Of a DNA stretch of 56,969 nucleotides, positions 3,602 to 26,561 are shown in pieces (position 1 is the stretch's first letter; each line of letters opens with the position of its first letter). The notes beneath the pieces were generated by a model. That model had not been told where the DNA came from. It did not search any database and worked only from the letters and a program-made list of their open reading frames with translations. A program made the position numbers and the translations under genes. Where the stretch lies: the IMG/VR virus record IMGVR_UViG_2061766007_000461; one strand, written 5' to 3'. This DNA is from an uncultured virus (IMG/VR IMGVR_UViG_2061766007_000461). Taxonomy: Duplodnaviria > Heunggongvirae > Uroviricota > Caudoviricetes.

Positions 3602-3631
3602 GAAGCGGGGGTTGCCCCGCTTCTTTTTTTT
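3602..3631 (+). terminator. Rho-independent terminator
   Basis: GAAGCGGGG-gttg-CCCCGCTTC followed by T-run. Confidence 0.85.
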
Positions 3632-3637
3632 ATCCTC

Positions 3638-3760
3638 AAAACGGAAACCACCGTAATTTGGCCTGTAAGGCACCTGTAAGCTTGAGGATGGGTTCGGATG
3701 GAAGACAGCCCATTTTGAAGCGCAGACGCACCTCTGAGCGCAAAATGCTGGCTACGCCAA
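3638..3760 (+). repeat. Dispersed ~120-bp non-coding element, copy a (divergent)
   Basis: ccaccgtaatttgg...cggatggaagacagcccattttgaagcgcagacg...tggctacgcca aligns with copy at 50733-50860. Confidence 0.6.
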
Positions 3761-3942
3761 GCCCGGAGAAGCAGAAAAAATTTTTCCCGTGGGGAATTCA
3801 CTGGTAAGCTCCGGAACCTATGGAAATTTCAACAAANNNNNNNNNNNNNNNNNNNNNNNAATTTGGAAACCGTCTGGAAATTCCAAGATTCTCAAAGAGA
3901 AAAATCCACATGAGCCATGGAGAAACCAAGCGGTCTGAAAAC

Positions 3943-3971
3943 TTTACTTTTTATAAAGTATCCCGTATGAT
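3943..3971 (+). promoter_or_regulatory. Early promoter copy 2
   Basis: TTTACT-17bp-TATGAT within the same ~130-bp conserved block. Confidence 0.75.
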
Positions 3972-4171
3972 ATTGGTGAGCCCGAAAAAGGGCCAGAAGG
4001 GAGCAGGACAGGATGAAGCGGTACGAATGGCGGGTCATCAACAAGGATTTGAACTGGTGGGGGCTGTGGGATACGGTCAAGCGGGANNNNNNNNNNNNNN
4101 NNNNNNNNNNNNNNNNNNNTACGGCATGGAAGCTTACAAAAAGATGGGATTCTGAGAAGGAGGAAACGGAA

Positions 4172-4639
4172 ATGACTACCAAGGAACAGGAACGCAAGGT
4201 GCTGGCGCAGATTCGGAAGCTGGTTGAGGGACTGGGTGATGACAGCTACGCGGGAACCGCTCTGGAGGGTTGCTGGGAAGTAGCGGAGCAGAACATTGAG
4301 AATGACTGGGCTTGCTCCATGAAGGACAGAGCGGAATCCGCTGAGCGCAAGCTCAACGCTCTGGAACTCCGGTACAAGCAGGACATGGAGCGGATGACCG
4401 CTTGCAAGGAGCATCTGGAGAAGAGCCGGGATGAAGCGCAGGAAAAGGCGGCTGAGAATTTTCAGGAAGCTCTGAAGCGTGCTGACAAGGCTCGCACCCT
4501 TGAGTCCCGGATTCAGGAGCTTGAGGAAGCCGCCCGGAAACAGCAGGAAGCGATTGACCAGCAGAGCGCTGAGAAAGAGCAGATGGCGTTGGAGATCATG
4601 AAGCTTAAGGCAAAACTGTTTGACCTGATGAACCTGTGA
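4172..4639 (+). CDS. Coiled-coil hypothetical protein
   Basis: RBS AAGGAGG; MTTKEQERKVLAQI...EIMKLKAKLFDLM, heptad-rich. Confidence 0.7.
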   Translation: MTTKEQERKVLAQIRKLVEGLGDDSYAGTALEGCWEVAEQNIENDWACSMKDRAESAERKLNALELRYKQDMERMTACKEHLEKSRDEAQEKAAENFQEALKRADKARTLESRIQELEEAARKQQEAIDQQSAEKEQMALEIMKLKAKLFDLMNL

Positions 4640-23982: not shown

Positions 23983-24003
23983 AAGAAAGTGAGGGCAATC
24001 ACA

Positions 24004-24702
24004 ATGGCAACTAAGGTTAAGGAACAGGAAATCATTTCCATTAAGCCGCTGAAGGTCAGCAAGGCAAAGATCACGATCGTTGGAGACTCTCCGCTGATTG
24101 TGCATGCATGGAGCGAGAAGGCAAAGAAAGAAATGCTGGAAGACCAGCAGAAGAACGGCAAAACCAAGAAGGCGAAAGAAATCCGCGACCCGTTTGCAGA
24201 GTTTATGGACGCGCTTTACTGGGTGACGGAAAAGCCAGAAGAATCCACGCCGGAAGAGTTTGAAAAAGCGTGGAGAGCGGGCGCGAAGTTTGGGTTCCCA
24301 CTGATTGCCATCAAACAGGCGGCGCTAAGCGCATGCTACCGAGCCGGATTGATCCCGAATCAAACCGGAATGAAGTCCGTTTTCTACCTGAACGCAGTTG
24401 ACGGAATCAACCCGGGGAGCGGCACAGAGCTTGGAGTGATTGAGACTGACGAGCCGCCCGTGTGCCGGGAGGACATGGTAAAGATTGGATCCCTGACGAA
24501 AGTCGCTAACCTTCGCTATCGCCCGTGCTTCAATCACTGGAAGATTCAGGTCGTAGTATCGCTGATTGAGGTAGGAACCTTCACGATGGCAAGCGTGATT
24601 AACGCTATCAACATGGGCGGGTTCATGAACGGGATTGGCGAGTGGAGAATGGAACGCGACGGGGACTTTGGACGATACCACGTCGAGATGGAGGGCGAAT
24701 AA
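24004..24702 (+). CDS. Cas7/RAMP-like RNA-binding protein #1 (stand-alone, phage-encoded)
   Basis: beta1 KITIVGDSPLIVH (cf. RAMP SPLHIG), FPLIAIKQA (cf. IPGSSLKGA), C-terminal G-rich loop GGFMNGIGEWR...GDFGRY. Confidence 0.75.
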   Translation: MATKVKEQEIISIKPLKVSKAKITIVGDSPLIVHAWSEKAKKEMLEDQQKNGKTKKAKEIRDPFAEFMDALYWVTEKPEESTPEEFEKAWRAGAKFGFPLIAIKQAALSACYRAGLIPNQTGMKSVFYLNAVDGINPGSGTELGVIETDEPPVCREDMVKIGSLTKVANLRYRPCFNHWKIQVVVSLIEVGTFTMASVINAINMGGFMNGIGEWRMERDGDFGRYHVEMEGE

Positions 24703-24703
24703 G

Positions 24704-25180
24704 ATGGCGGCATTTGAGTACGCATACTCCGATTACTTCAGCGCTTGCAAGGTTCAGGCGCAGACGGTTGGCGAGATCATGGAAGGATTGGAAAAGCAGG
24801 GAGAATTGAGCCCGAGAACGCTGCTTGACGCAAGCCGGGAGGCAAACTCCCCGCTCCACGAATACTTTGATTGGGACGATACGACAGCGGCAGAGAAGTG
24901 GAGACTGGAACAGGCGCGAGTCCTGATAGCAAACGTTCGGATTATCAGAAGCGATGACAAGCAGGAACGCGAAGCTTTGAAGGATCGGTGCTTCGTTCCG
25001 GCTACTGGTCAGAAAGGCGTATACGTTCACATGGATACAGCGTTGCACAAGGACGAATACCGGAAAAGGCTGTTGGAACAGGCGAGACGGGATTCAGAGA
25101 TATACATTGCAAAGTATCGCAGGATTGAGGAATTAGCAATGGTTGTGCAGGAAATGGAAAACTTCTTGAATGTAGGCTGA
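24704..25180 (+). CDS. Conserved partner protein between RAMP gene and array
   Basis: SPLHEYFDWDD..AAEKWRLEQARVLI; starts 1 nt after the RAMP stop. Confidence 0.75.
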   Translation: MAAFEYAYSDYFSACKVQAQTVGEIMEGLEKQGELSPRTLLDASREANSPLHEYFDWDDTTAAEKWRLEQARVLIANVRIIRSDDKQEREALKDRCFVPATGQKGVYVHMDTALHKDEYRKRLLEQARRDSEIYIAKYRRIEELAMVVQEMENFLNVG

Positions 25181-25192
25181 AGAAGCTGAGAC

Positions 25193-25502
25193 ATGGCTTG
25201 TCAGTCATGGATAGTTTTGGCTTGATCTGGACAGGTAGCGTTAGGCGCGGAAGGTCACGGCAGTCGAGGATTGTTTAGTTCTGGACAGGAGCGGAACGTT
25301 GTGGAGAGGCAGTCTTGGCTCGGAATTGAAAGGTGAGTTTTTGTGCGTAGCAGTTTGGAAAGTTCGGGTATGTTTCCGAGGGGAGAGGCAGTCAAGGATC
25401 GTCTTGGAACGTTGCGGATGGGTAGACCATGGAATGGAGCGGGTTGGCAGTCAGGGATAGTCTGGGAGTAGTTCGGATCGTAATGTTACGGTTAGGAAAG
25501 GA
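25193..25502 (+). ncRNA. 5-nt-periodic guide-like array (5 units, NN + GGA/GTT/GGY, delimiter GGCAGTC)
   Basis: Delimiters at 25200 (GTCAGTC), 25259, 25308, 25387, 25446; spacings 59, 49, 79, 59 = 5n+4; no ORF. RNA expression is inferred. Confidence 0.8.
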
Positions 25503-25510
25503 GTGACCGG

Positions 25511-25789
25511 ATGACTAAGAGCATCCTGCGGAATGAAAAAGAGTGCTATGTGTGCGGCGGGATGCGGGATCTGGAACGGCACCACGTGCTCGGCGGCACA
25601 GCCAACCGGAAGTTATCAGAAAAGCACGGTCTCTGGGTCTGGTTGTGCCGCGAGCACCACACCGGGAAATACGGCGCTCAGTATGACAACGCGCTCAACC
25701 TGAGGCTGAAGCAGGAAGCGCAGCGGGCATTTGAGGCGCTCCACGGCCATGAGCAGTGGATGCAGATATTCAGAAAAAACTATTTATGA
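25511..25789 (+). CDS. Small HNH/Zn-finger nuclease-like protein
   Basis: CYVCG...LERHHV.GG..NRKLSEKHGL.VWLCREHH. Confidence 0.75.
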   Translation: MTKSILRNEKECYVCGGMRDLERHHVLGGTANRKLSEKHGLWVWLCREHHTGKYGAQYDNALNLRLKQEAQRAFEALHGHEQWMQIFRKNYL

Positions 25790-25802
25790 GGAGGGCAATT
25801 CA

Positions 25803-26365
25803 ATGGTTCTGAAGGTGAAGGTCACGATGTTTGAAGAGATTCTTGGCACGGCAAGCGCGAATCCGGAGATTCACGAGGAGTTTATTGCCAGCAAGGCTCC
25901 GGACGCTCCGAGCCGGGAAGAAGAGGTCGCTGCAATTGGTGCGGAAGGCGTGTTCGAAAAGGGCATGACCGTGTTCCCCCGGGACGCGAACGGAAATCCG
26001 ATTGCGTGGGACTACCAGTGGAAAGGGTTCTTCAAGGATGCATGCGGCAGCTTGAGGAACGTTCCCGGCTCCGAGTGCAGCAAGATCAAGGCTTACAAAA
26101 AGCTGATTGACGGTCTTGTGTTCCCCCAGCCCCGGCAGATCCCGATCAAGTTTGACGGGCCTATGGGCATCTGTCAGCGGCCGCTCAGGGGCCAGACGGC
26201 TCAGGGTGAGCGTGTAGCGCTGGCCAGCAGTGAGAGCATACCGGCCGGTGCAACGATGGAGTTTGAAATCAAGCTGCTGAATCCTTCCCTCGAACCGGCA
26301 ATTCTTGAAATGCTGGAATACGGGGAGCTTCGCGGGTTCGGTCAGTGGAGGAACAGCGGCAAAGG
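25803..26365 (+). CDS. Cas7/RAMP-like protein #2 (different subfamily; end in gap)
   Basis: KVKVTMFEEILGT, DYQWKGFFKDAC, RPLR...ESIPAGATMEFEI, G-loop YGELRGFGQWRNSGKG. Confidence 0.75.
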
Positions 26366-26375
26366 NNNNNNNNNN

Positions 26376-26561
26376 CAACACCAATCAAACCGGAACAAAC
26401 GGAAGCAAACCGAAGCAAAGCGGAACAAAAAAAGTTCAGGAAGCCAACGGTGGAGGAAGTCCGGGACTATTGCCGGGAACGTGGAAACAAGGTGGACGCT
26501 CAAACGTTCATTGACTTCTATGAGAGCAAGGGCTGGCGGGTTGGAAACCAGCCGATGAAGG
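26376..26561 (+). CDS. Replication initiator middle/C-terminal fragment with iterons
   Basis: Iterons then FRKPTVEEVRDYCRERGNKVDAQTFIDFYESKGWRVGNQPMK; continuation of a DUF6291-type gene such as 18468. Confidence 0.8.

What the first reader, a model, noticed from the sequence alone, without database searches (positions are those of the whole stretch)
25207..25502. Array dinucleotides decode to protein motifs when read antisense with wobble bases skipped
I reverse-complemented each unit's NN series and treated each pair as codon positions 1-2. Unit 5: TTn TAn GTn ATn GAn GAn ACn CAn TAn CTn = [FL]YV[IM][DE][DE]T[HQ]YL, like a DExH helicase Walker B. Unit 4: AAn GCn ATn ATn CTn CAn GCn GTn AAn GAn TTn, compatible with NAIILQAVKD[FL], a motif I recall from small Firmicutes phage proteins. 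Unit 3: SP[DE][IM]R[FL][KN]AA[KN]S[FL][IM][DE][KN], like an RLxAAxxLLD helix. Unit 1: VLAYL[CW][RS][KN][KN]Y[IM]. Unit 2: STVA[CW][RS]Y[KN]S. Inference: guides recognise gapped NNx targets in conserved coding motifs and are insensitive to synonymous escape. I saw no target in this window by eye. The motif reading is subjective because of degeneracy.
Basis: partly seen in the sequence, partly recalled or inferred. Interest (0 to 1): 0.92.

Follow-up and report, generated by a model that had tools for sequence, protein, structure and literature searches.

The report
Phage VIPR guide-RNA array with targets
This stretch of a cattle-gut phage is an array of guide RNAs of the recently described VIPR kind, whose two-letter code words spell out, with every third letter skipped, conserved genes of rival phages.

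Summary
Window 25193-25502 is a 310-nt non-coding array of 5-nt units NNG[G/T]H. It splits into five guides, each starting CAGTC.

It is a VIPR (Viral Interference Programmable Repeat) vrRNA array, described in 2026 bioRxiv preprints. The gene two ORFs upstream (23989-24702) is a RAMP protein. Its only significant PDB sequence match is the SUSP1 Vipr protein (E 1.6e-4), the GG-binding residues are kept, and its model has a Cas7 fold. Related arrays occur only beside homologues of this gene or of a second RAMP-like gene (25803-).

The published "1-nt skip" code is borne out for 2 of 5 guides:
- Unit 4 has 7 exact IMG/VR matches.
- Unit 2 has 26 exact matches.
- Skips of 0, 2 or 3 and shuffled guides give nothing.
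- Units 1, 3 and 5, including the "DExH" reading, have no target in what I searched.

Verdict: a real new member of a known, very recently described kind.

The parts
23989..24702 (+). vipr-like gene (called p237 here): a Cas7-type RAMP protein, the likely vrRNA-binding filament subunit. The probable true start is the ATG at 24004.
   Evidence: A profile of 35 homologues hits only PDB 36pp 'SUSP1 Vipr protein' significantly (E 1.6e-4; single sequence E 0.0063). R178, E218, W219 and R220 align with SUSP1 R138, D177, W178 and R179. H39 aligns with H17 only in a non-significant stretch. The AF2 model (pLDDT 77, pTM 0.74) matches Cas7/Csm3/gRAMP chains (35 hits with E<=1e-3, best 1.1e-5). PHROG phrog_4652, function unknown.
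24704..25180 (+). Candidate vipr-accessory (vap) gene, called p181 here. The ORF was listed from 24635, but the likely start is the ATG at 24704. Function unknown.
   Evidence: phrog_15946, function unknown; no Pfam or NCBIfam family. tblastn finds it only in L006 and L041, the two loci that also carry p237. The Atlas holds it from residue 24 on, in viral-only clusters, one auto-named DUF4494.
25193..25201 (+). Short leader of two pentamers (ATGGC TTGTC) before the first CAGTC junction.
   Evidence: Pentamer chain trace. It overlaps a weak hairpin at 25192-25209.
25202..25260 (+). vrRNA unit 1. NN series: AT TA TT TT CT CA AG TA GC AG AC.
   Evidence: No target found: 0 exact matches in viral contigs and 0 in metagenome contigs. 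At most 15 of 22 in ten whole target contigs, at or below the shuffled-guide best (17).
25261..25309 (+). vrRNA unit 2. NN series: GA TT TA CT CA GC AC GT GA.
   Evidence: 26 exact 1-nt-skip matches in viral contigs. 25 are in sense codon phase in a GGACT/AIG2-like gene of about 147 aa, at the motif EFYLHATVE. 18/18 only at skip 1 in 5 whole contigs.
25310..25388 (+). vrRNA unit 3, with 15 NN. Four of its pentamers are irregular.
   Evidence: No target found. A near-identical contig in run X3 reads G at 25342, which turns TTTGT into the regular TTGGT.
25389..25447 (+). vrRNA unit 4. NN series: AA TC TT AC GC TG AG AT AT GC TT.
   Evidence: 7 exact matches in viral contigs, all antisense and in codon phase at residues 11-21 (16-26 in one ORF called from an upstream TTG) of a 78-83 aa phrog_7024 ORF, encoding NAIILQAVKDF. 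22/22 only at skip 1. 21/22 in contig G007, which also carries the unit 2 target. 16 of 401 Clostridia-class genomes match with <=2 mismatches, against 1 of 401 for the reversed control.
25448..25502 (+). vrRNA unit 5. NN series: AG TA TG GT TC TC AT AC TA AA. Its 3' end runs into the ribosome-binding site of the next gene, and no GGCAGTC junction closes it.
   Evidence: 0 exact viral matches. The relaxed 18-base pattern gave 4 loci with stop codons in both phased readings (guide sense and antisense) and no shared gene, i.e. chance.
25803..26365 (+). Second RAMP-like gene, called p216 here. It is cut by a masked N run at 26366, and its 3' end cannot be read.
   Evidence: A profile of 25 homologues gives weak G-loop matches to type VII Cas7 (8yhd, E 0.0085) and Csm4 (6xn3, E 0.04). 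Homologues occur only in L002/L081 and L059, each directly followed by a 600-650 nt A/G-rich pentamer array. No Pfam or PHROG family.

Best explanation
The 310-nt stretch is a staggered array of five VIPR guide RNAs (vrRNAs) in the early operon of a cattle-gut Clostridia phage. The RAMP protein encoded at 23989-24702 serves it.

Proposed mechanism, following the published VIPR mechanism:
1. The + strand transcript is cut or bounded at the GG-C-AGTC junctions. There neighbouring guides share one base, so unit lengths are 5n-1.
2. One Vipr protomer binds each pentamer. It flips out the scaffold triplet, which here is G-[G/T]-H rather than the published GGY.
3. The two variable bases are presented for pairing.
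4. The 9-15 dinucleotides of a guide pair with one strand of double-stranded DNA, and every third target base is skipped.
5. Because the skipped base falls on the codon wobble position, the guide reads a conserved peptide motif and tolerates synonymous changes.
6. Binding blocks transcription of genes in competing phages.

What is shown here:
- the array anatomy;
- the homology and fold of the protein;
- the exclusive co-occurrence of array and RAMP gene;
- real 1-nt-skip targets for guides 2 and 4 in other phages and prophages;
- the absence of self-targets.

What is inferred from the papers:
- expression and processing of the RNA;
- filament formation;
- silencing as the outcome;
- the role of the neighbouring 158-aa gene as an accessory.
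For: Array:
- A strict pentamer register with G at position 3 in 46 of 53 pentamers and variable positions 1-2.
- All five units have length 5n-1 (59, 49, 79, 59; the last is open-ended) with a shared C at the junction. This fits the 'staggered arrays' whose vrRNAs overlap by 1 nt (legend of fig. S18).

Protein:
- The only significant PDB sequence hit is SUSP1 Vipr (E 1.6e-4). R178, E218, W219 and R220 align with R138, D177, W178 and R179, which the cryo-EM paper names as the GG-binding residues.
- Foldseek of the AF2 model gives only Cas7-type RAMPs at the top.

Association, among 144 loci fetched through the neighbouring 92-aa gene:
- Pentamer arrays of >=70 bits occur in 5 loci, or 4 independent ones because L002 = L081.
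- All 5 carry a p237 or p216 homologue directly upstream of the array. None of the other 139 has either gene within the roughly 3-kb flanks.

Targets:
- Unit 4 has 7 exact matches on 22 specified bases. Unit 2 has 26 exact matches on 18 specified bases.
- 32 of these 33 fall in two gene families in codon phase.
- A control-like 18-base pattern (relaxed unit 5) gave 4 scattered loci with stop codons and no common gene.
- In 10 whole target contigs only skip 1 gives full matches. Skips 0, 2 and 3 reach <=17 of 22 or <=14 of 18, and shuffled guides <=19 or <=15.
- Skipped columns vary among sites: 8 of 8 for unit 2 and 5 of 10 for unit 4.
- Contig G007 carries both the unit 2 target (18/18) and a unit 4 site (21/22).
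- There is no self-target in the window and no target in the 144 related loci. The best skip-1 scores there equal those of shuffled guides.
Against: - Three of five guides (units 1, 3, 5) have no target in anything I searched.
- The scaffold is not the published GGY. After GG the next base is A in 21 of 35 cases, and 20 of 63 pentamers have GT instead of GG. In SUSP1 the Y pocket is said to exclude purines.
- There is no conserved structured 3' tail or pseudoknot, only a 7-nt GGCAGTC junction. The fold energy is only mildly better than shuffles (z -1.95).
- Similarity to SUSP1 Vipr is distant. It covers mainly the thumb and G-loop; the N-terminal alignment, including H39, is not significant by itself.
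- No RNA data exist for this phage, so transcription and processing are not shown.
- The array is separated from p237 by one gene here, and a second RAMP-like gene lies downstream. Assigning the array to p237 rests on comparison with L006 and L041.
- I could not read the supplement that defines the seven VIPR types, so the type is not assigned.
Confidence: 0.9

Rival explanations
1. It is a VIPR array, but the downstream RAMP-like protein p216 (25803-) uses it, or p216 and p237 both do.
For: - p216 lies 300 nt downstream of the array.
- In L002/L081 and L059 its homologues sit directly beside long pentamer arrays.
- In the window p216 has no array of its own. The next gene follows closely, although masked N runs hide parts of this region.
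Against: - The window array is G/T-rich, with -1 junctions at GGC|CAG, like the arrays beside p237 homologues in L006 and L041.
- The arrays beside p216 homologues are A/G-rich, have many +1 slips and almost no GT pentamers.
- The p237 and p216 profiles share only the G-loop (hhalign probability 1.9%).
Confidence: 0.08
2. It is a GGA-rich decoy RNA that soaks up an oligomeric RNA-binding protein, such as a CsrA-type sponge or a TRAP-like ring wrapped by triplets with 2-nt spacers. The variable dinucleotides carry no information.
For: - 21 GGA in 330 nt. Base-shuffled versions have a mean of 11, and the maximum of 5000 shuffles is 21.
- Several units have about 11 pentamers, reminiscent of the 11 triplets bound by TRAP (that number is recalled, not tested).
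Against: - The dinucleotides of units 2 and 4 match foreign phage genes perfectly over 18 and 22 bases, in codon phase. A sponge does not predict this.
- The array co-occurs with RAMP genes, not with CsrA or TRAP genes.
- No Rfam family matches.
Confidence: 0.01
3. It is a DNA-level site read as double-stranded DNA: replication iterons, or a packaging or partition site with GGA/GTT alternating every half helical turn.
For: - It lies in the replication and recombination module, next to Gam, Erf and NinB.
- The 10-bp alternation could favour bending.
- Pentamer-like repeats of 15 nt occur inside a likely replication gene in L052 and L068.
Against: - There is strong strand asymmetry (G 127 against C 45). 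All related arrays lie on the strand of the surrounding genes.
- Terminase is about 27 kb away.
- The target matches and the RAMP association are unexplained by this reading.
Confidence: 0.01

Closest known systems
VIPR systems (Vipr RAMP protein plus vrRNA), type II of Escherichia phage SUSP1 and a Pseudomonas fulva prophage. Sources: bioRxiv 10.64898/2026.04.26.720920 and 10.64898/2026.04.26.720927.
   Same: - It is phage-encoded.
- A small RAMP gene is flanked by long non-coding DNA.
- Guides consist of 9-16 five-nt repeats with a conserved G-rich triplet and two variable bases.
- Targets follow the 1-nt skip rule, with the skip on the wobble base, on either strand, in other phages.
- There is no self-target.
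- The thumb arginine and the G-loop [D/E]-W-R are conserved.
   Different: - The host is a cattle-gut Clostridia lineage.
- The protein is only distantly related (E 1.6e-4) and longer (237 aa against 202).
- The scaffold is G-[G/T]-H, with A the commonest third base, where SUSP1 requires a pyrimidine.
- There is no pseudoknotted 3' tail.
- Guides abut with a 1-nt overlap.
- One gene separates vipr from the array.
Staggered vrRNA arrays and the variant repeat consensuses (NNNGG, YNNNG, NNNNG) mentioned for other VIPR types in the same preprint (section 20 and the legend of fig. S18).
   Same: - Units of length 5n-1 share one base at each junction.
- Only the first G of the triplet is nearly invariant.
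   Different: I could not see the figure or the supplement. Whether the GG-C-AGTC junction, the GT pentamers or this protein clade are among the described types is therefore unknown.
Class 1 CRISPR-Cas backbones (Cas7/Csm3 filaments of types III and VII, and gRAMP).
   Same: - It has a Cas7-type RAMP fold (Foldseek E about 1e-5, TM 0.4-0.5).
- One protomer binds per fixed number of guide nucleotides, with periodic base flipping.
   Different: - There are no CRISPR repeats, no spacers of foreign origin, and no cas1, cas2 or other cas genes.
- The period is 5 rather than 6.
- Three guide bases but one target base are skipped, so guide and target differ in length.

Membership tests
VIPR system | A Vipr protein: a minimal RAMP with an RRM core, a glycine-rich loop and a thumb, related to the described Vipr proteins. 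| tested here: met
   The profile hits SUSP1 Vipr (36pp) at E 1.6e-4, the only significant PDB sequence match. The AF2 model matches Cas7-type RAMPs, with 35 hits at E<=1e-3. R178, E218, W219 and R220 align with R138, D177, W178 and R179.
VIPR system | vrRNA: tandem 5-nt repeats (>=4; typically 9-16 per guide) with a conserved GGY triplet alternating with hypervariable NN. | tested here: inconclusive
   Period 5 and variable NN are met, with 9-15 NN per unit after the conserved CAGTC pentamer. The strict GGY is not met: GG in 35 and GT in 20 of 63 pentamers, and the base after GG is A 21, C 8, T 5, G 1. The preprint allows 'a related consensus' (NNNGG, NNNNG). The NN of GT pentamers are matched in real targets.
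VIPR system | Targets obey the 1-nt skip rule (NNxNNx...), mostly in coding sequence with the skip at the wobble position, on either strand. | tested here: met
   Met for 2 of 5 guides. Unit 4 has 7 exact matches and unit 2 has 26, of which 32 of 33 are in codon phase in two gene families. Skips 0, 2 and 3 and shuffled guides stay at background. Units 1, 3 and 5 have no target found.
VIPR system | No self-targeting of the source contig. | tested here: met
   The best skip-1 score of every unit against the window plus 144 loci equals that of shuffled guides. Only skip 3, which is the array itself, gives full matches. No homologue of either target gene occurs in the window.
VIPR system | An invariable structured 3' tail (a pseudoknot in the SUSP1 clade) capping each guide. 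| tested here: not met
   Only a 7-nt GGCAGTC junction is shared between units. There is no Rfam match, hammerhead included. The MFE z-score is -1.95. The preprint describes tail-less staggered arrays in other types, so this feature defines type II, not VIPR as a whole.
VIPR system | An adjacent vipr-accessory (vap) gene. | tested here: inconclusive
   The 158/181-aa gene at 24704-25180 accompanies p237 in 3 of 3 loci (window, L006, L041) and appears in no other fetched locus. It has no recognisable domain. Whether it equals one of vap1-6 could not be checked because the supplement was unreadable.
VIPR system | vrRNAs are expressed, processed and co-purify with Vipr, and the complex silences transcription. 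| not testable with these tools
   No RNA run is listed for this sequence.
CRISPR-Cas | Identical direct repeats of 20-50 nt separating unique spacers, with cas1/cas2 or an effector module. | tested here: not met
   No long repeats; the only shared motif is 7 nt. The neighbouring genes are Gam, Erf, NinB and an HNH-like protein, with no cas genes.
CsrB/RsmZ-type protein sponge RNA | A match to a known family model, with GGA motifs displayed in hairpin loops. | tested here: not met
   No Rfam match even at E<=10. The GGA motifs follow a 5-nt register rather than hairpin loops.

The most novel reading that the evidence does not exclude
This phage may carry two different Vipr-type RAMPs in one operon. 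The second one (p216, 25803-) would found a VIPR lineage not recognisable from SUSP1 Vipr by sequence.

What supports this:
- Its G-loop is closer to type VII Cas7 and Csm4 than to SUSP1 Vipr.
- It has 6541 unnamed homologues.
- In other phages it has its own looser, A/G-rich arrays (NNGGA/NNGCA with +1 slips).

In the window p216 has no array of its own. It would then either borrow the p237 guides or act on rivals' guides, for example as an anti-VIPR. Separately, the G-[G/T]-H scaffold, with purine tolerated at the third base, would mean the scaffold-reading pocket of Vipr is itself evolvable.
Probability: 0.3. Interest if true: 0.7.

Novelty: new member of a known kind. Interest (0 to 1): 0.5.

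Why it matters
VIPR was first reported in 2026 preprints. Its natural targets were worked out mainly for Escherichia and Pseudomonas elements there.

This window adds a Clostridia-phage member from cattle gut with two concrete natural targets:
- a phage gamma-glutamyl-cyclotransferase-like gene;
- a small phrog_7024 gene at the head of a helicase and late-activator block.

It also shows several further points:
- GT and irregular pentamers still contribute code letters.
- One rival phage is hit by two guides.
- The protein families involved are very large and entirely unannotated (3181 and 6541 homologues).
- A gapped guide code can be read straight off raw sequence and checked by pattern search.

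For annotation this means that long G-rich 'intergenic' stretches in Firmicutes phages can be assigned a function, and that phage-phage conflict networks in the rumen can be mapped from sequence alone.

Tried and rejected
Ideas rejected:
1. My first ideas were a CsrA-type GGA sponge, a TRAP-like ring binder, a G-quadruplex tract, a Shine-Dalgarno decoy, or a terminase or origin DNA site. I dropped them once the RAMP link and the targets appeared.

Searches that gave nothing:
2. Rfam: none of 4227 families matched, at gathering level on the whole window or at E<=10 on 24900-25800, bar a meaningless lncRNA hit.
3. blastn of 24635-25800 against GenBank phages: no match.
4. No whole genome is held for the window.
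5. Earlier-findings look-ups: nothing.
6. The 92-aa protein alone found no viral relatives. Its alignment did.

Protein work:
7. AF2 of p237 without an alignment gave pLDDT 38 and was unusable.
8. p237 against p216: BLASTP E 0.039 over 17 residues; hhalign probability 1.9%. Common ancestry beyond the G-loop is not shown.

Target searches for the unmatched guides:
9. Unit 1: 0 exact in viral and metagenome contigs, and 0 of 5 target records at <=3 mismatches.
10. Unit 3: first 10 NN, 0 viral; pattern with irregular pentamers wild-carded, 0 metagenome; full pattern at <=3 mismatches, 0 of 401 genomes.
11. Unit 5: 0 viral; 0 of 5 records at <=3 mismatches; the relaxed pattern gave chance hits only.
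12. Class-wide genome searches were not run for units 1 and 5.

Other:
13. The target phages share almost no genes with the window phage and carry no p237, p216 or p181 homologue.
14. No RNA holder is listed among public runs. The laid runs were DNA contigs and cannot show RNA ends.
15. The supplement PDF of PMC13142463 could not be read, twice timed out. bioRxiv supplements are closed, so the type assignment and the lists of known Vipr proteins were not checked.
16. The promoter and terminator scan was at background.

Full report
**What is in the sequence**

Window 25181-25510 is a 330-nt gap between two + strand ORFs. Its base counts are G 127, T 84, A 74 and C 45, with 21 GGA against 1 TCC.

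Written in register, it is a chain of 5-nt units. Over 53 pentamers, position 3 is G in 46. Position 4 is G in 36 and T in 14. Position 5 is A 25, T 19, C 8, G 1. Positions 1-2 are variable.

Five units begin with CAGTC at 25202, 25261, 25310, 25389 and 25448. The four closed units are 59, 49, 79 and 59 nt long. Each is 5n-1, because the last C of ...NNGGC is also the first base of CAGTC.

A pentamer log-odds chain scores 142 bits here. The next best place in the window scores 23 bits, and nothing scores on the minus strand (the model was trained on this array). The period-5 power of G is also the window maximum here.

**Context**

The window is a phage or prophage. The array lies near the end of a + strand early operon:
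- an HTH regulator;
- Mu Gam-like, Erf and NinB/Orf genes;
- an unknown 237-aa gene (phrog_4652, 23989-24702, called p237 here);
- an unknown gene (phrog_15946, to 25180, called p181);
- the array;
- a 92-aa HNH-like gene (phrog_7566);
- an unknown gene from 25803 (called p216).

This operon converges on a minus-strand late operon with endolysin, tail fibre and tape measure genes.

No whole genome is held for the window. Public runs that hold the stretch are cattle-gut metagenomes.

**Relatives**

I fetched 144 loci through the 92-aa protein. Pentamer arrays of 70 bits or more were found in five of them, all on the gene strand: L006 (177 bits), L041 (112), L002 and its duplicate L081 (82), and L059 (70). 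Two weaker signals were L052 (45 bits, a coding 15-nt repeat) and L135 (35 bits, not examined).

tblastn of the window's proteins showed an exclusive pattern:
- p237 homologues occur only in L006 and L041, with the array starting directly after the gene in each.
- p216 homologues occur only in L002, L081 and L059, again with the array directly after the gene.
- None of the other 139 loci has either gene within its flanks.
- p181 occurs only where p237 does.

The arrays beside p237 homologues are G/T-rich with the same -1 junctions (GGC|CAGG or GGC|CTGG). Those beside p216 homologues are A/G-rich with many +1 slips. One guide is identical in L006 and L041.

**Identity of the proteins**

p237:
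- It matches PDB 36pp, 'SUSP1 Vipr protein', at E 0.0063 as a single sequence.
- As a profile of 35 homologues it matches at E 1.6e-4, the only significant hit.
- The significant stretch covers the thumb and the glycine-rich loop. R178, E218, W219 and R220 align with SUSP1 R138, D177, W178 and R179.
- H39 aligns with H17, but only in a stretch that is not significant on its own.
- An AlphaFold2 model built with the alignment (pLDDT 77.1, pTM 0.74) matches Cas7-type RAMPs: type VII Cas7, Csm3 and gRAMP. There are 35 hits at E<=1e-3, the best at 1.1e-5, with TM 0.4-0.5.

p216:
- It gives only weak G-loop matches, to Cas7 (E 0.0085) and Csm4 (E 0.04).
- It is not demonstrably homologous to p237 beyond that loop.

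Both families are large, with 3181 and 6541 homologues, all unnamed.

**What is known**

A literature search led to three 2026 bioRxiv preprints.

*10.64898/2026.04.26.720920.* I read the abstract, all Results, methods sections 18, 20, 26 and 27, and legend passages. It describes Viral Interference Programmable Repeat systems:
- A phage-encoded minimal RAMP (Vipr) works with vrRNAs of 9-16 YNNGG repeats.
- The NN bases pair with double-stranded DNA under a '1 nt skip rule'. The skipped base falls mostly at the codon wobble position, on either strand.
- The system silences competing phages and satellites.
- It lists variant consensuses (NNNGG, YNNNG, NNNNG), staggered arrays whose vrRNAs overlap by 1 nt, and accessory vap genes.

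*10.64898/2026.04.26.720927.* I read the abstract and sections 5-6. It shows one protomer per repeat. G1 is read by H17 and D177, G2 by R138 and W178, and Y3 sits in a pocket with R179 that excludes purines.

*10.64898/2026.10.15.759431.* I read the abstract and section 17. It describes the codon-periodic targeting and the scanning nulls.

The supplement of the first paper could not be read, so I cannot assign a VIPR type.

**Testing the code**

Local search. Against the window plus the 144 loci (1.73 million positions), every unit's best skip-1 score equals that of shuffled guides. Only skip 3, which is the array itself, gives full matches. So there is no self-target.

Exact-pattern scans of IMG/VR contigs:
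- Unit 4 (22 specified bases) gave 7 matches. All 7 lie antisense and in codon phase at residues 11-21 (16-26 in one ORF called from an upstream TTG) of a 78-83 aa ORF (phrog_7024, function unknown), encoding NAIILQAVKDF.
- Unit 2 (18 specified bases) gave 26 matches. 25 lie in sense codon phase in a roughly 147-aa GGACT/AIG2-like gamma-glutamyl cyclotransferase gene (PF06094, 3e-12; phrog_2520, 1e-31), encoding EFYLHATVE. One lies in an unrelated 974-aa ORF.
- As a yardstick for chance, an 18-base relaxed unit 5 pattern gave 4 loci. They are AT-rich, have stop codons in both phased readings (guide sense and antisense), and share no gene.

Whole target contigs. In ten contigs only skip 1 gives full matches (22/22 in 5 contigs and 18/18 in 5). 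Other skips reach at most 17 and 14, and shuffled guides at most 19 and 15.

Other observations:
- Skipped columns vary among sites: 8 of 8 for unit 2 and 5 of 10 for unit 4.
- Contig G007 carries both a unit 2 site (18/18) and a unit 4 site (21/22, encoding KAIILQAIKDF).
- In an even sample of 401 genomes of the class around G011, 16 have a unit 4 site with <=2 mismatches. The reversed control matches 1. Most of the 16 begin TA, which is the ...KDY variant.
- The NN of GT pentamers, and of the irregular AGACC pentamer, are matched in the targets. These units therefore carry code letters too.

**Where the targets sit**

In the complete provirus G004 the phrog_7024 gene lies in the replication module. 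It follows a primase/helicase and a nuclease. Its stop codon overlaps the start of an SNF2-like helicase, which is followed by a transcriptional-activator-like gene. A roadblock there could silence that block; this is inference.

The target phages share almost nothing with the window phage, and they lack p237, p216 and p181. The window has no homologue of either target gene.

**What remains open**

- Units 1, 3 and 5 have no target in any search made. Class-wide genome searches were not run for units 1 and 5. The 'DExH' and 'RLxAAxxLLD' readings are unsupported.
- The scaffold departs from GGY. After GG the next base is A in 21 of 35 cases, and GT replaces GG in 20 of 63 pentamers.
- There is no structured tail.
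- No RNA data exist for this phage.
- A near-identical contig in run X3 differs in the array only at 25342 (T>G), which makes an irregular pentamer regular.

**Verdict**

It is a new, divergent member of the VIPR kind published in 2026, with two natural targets identified here. It is not a new kind of system.

Noticed in passing
window 25803-26365 (and L002:3295-3945, L059 about 3620-4230): A second RAMP-like gene (p216) in the same operon. Its homologues in other phages are followed by 600-650 nt A/G-rich pentamer arrays of a looser kind (NNGGA/NNGCA with frequent +1 slips). It may be a separate VIPR lineage.
   Followed up: partly
window 26386-26429: A tandem repeat of about 10 nt (CAAACCGGAA-like, 4.4 copies) just after a masked N run at the end of p216. 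It could be the low-complexity N-terminus of the next gene (phrog_15768) or a remnant of a p216-type array. Masked runs at 26366, 26562 and 26680 hinder reading.
   Followed up: no
L006:2418-2497 and L041:2357-2436: Two different phages carry an identical 16-pentamer guide, with the same NN series throughout. This suggests a conserved, widely useful target. I had no scans left to look for it.
   Followed up: no
L052:1090-1144 and L068:4343-4400: 15-nt repeats (TAGGTTAGGTAAGGA-like) inside an ORF, encoding GKDRL repeats. They give a strong period-5 G signal but are coding and lack a RAMP neighbour. They may be origin iterons within a replication gene (recalled analogy, not tested).
   Followed up: no
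L087:620-900: A long run of 18-nt tandem repeats (GGCGATGCAnGGGTTTnC-like) within what looks like coding sequence. It is unrelated to the pentamer arrays.
   Followed up: no
window 25342: A near-identical contig from another public run reads G instead of T, turning the irregular pentamer TTTGT into the regular TTGGT without changing its NN.
   Followed up: partly
window 25511-25789: The 92-aa HNH-like zinc-finger protein (phrog_7566) is widespread in Clostridia phages, next to NinB, irrespective of VIPR (tblastn hits in 141 of the 144 loci fetched through it). It is therefore probably not a VIPR accessory, although HNH vap genes are described for other VIPR types.
   Followed up: partly
G007 (IMG/VR record behind L188), about 8257 on the reverse strand: One rival phage carries both a perfect unit 2 target and a 21/22 unit 4 target. 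Its single mismatch changes V to I (KAIILQAIKDF), which could be an escape substitution.
   Followed up: partly
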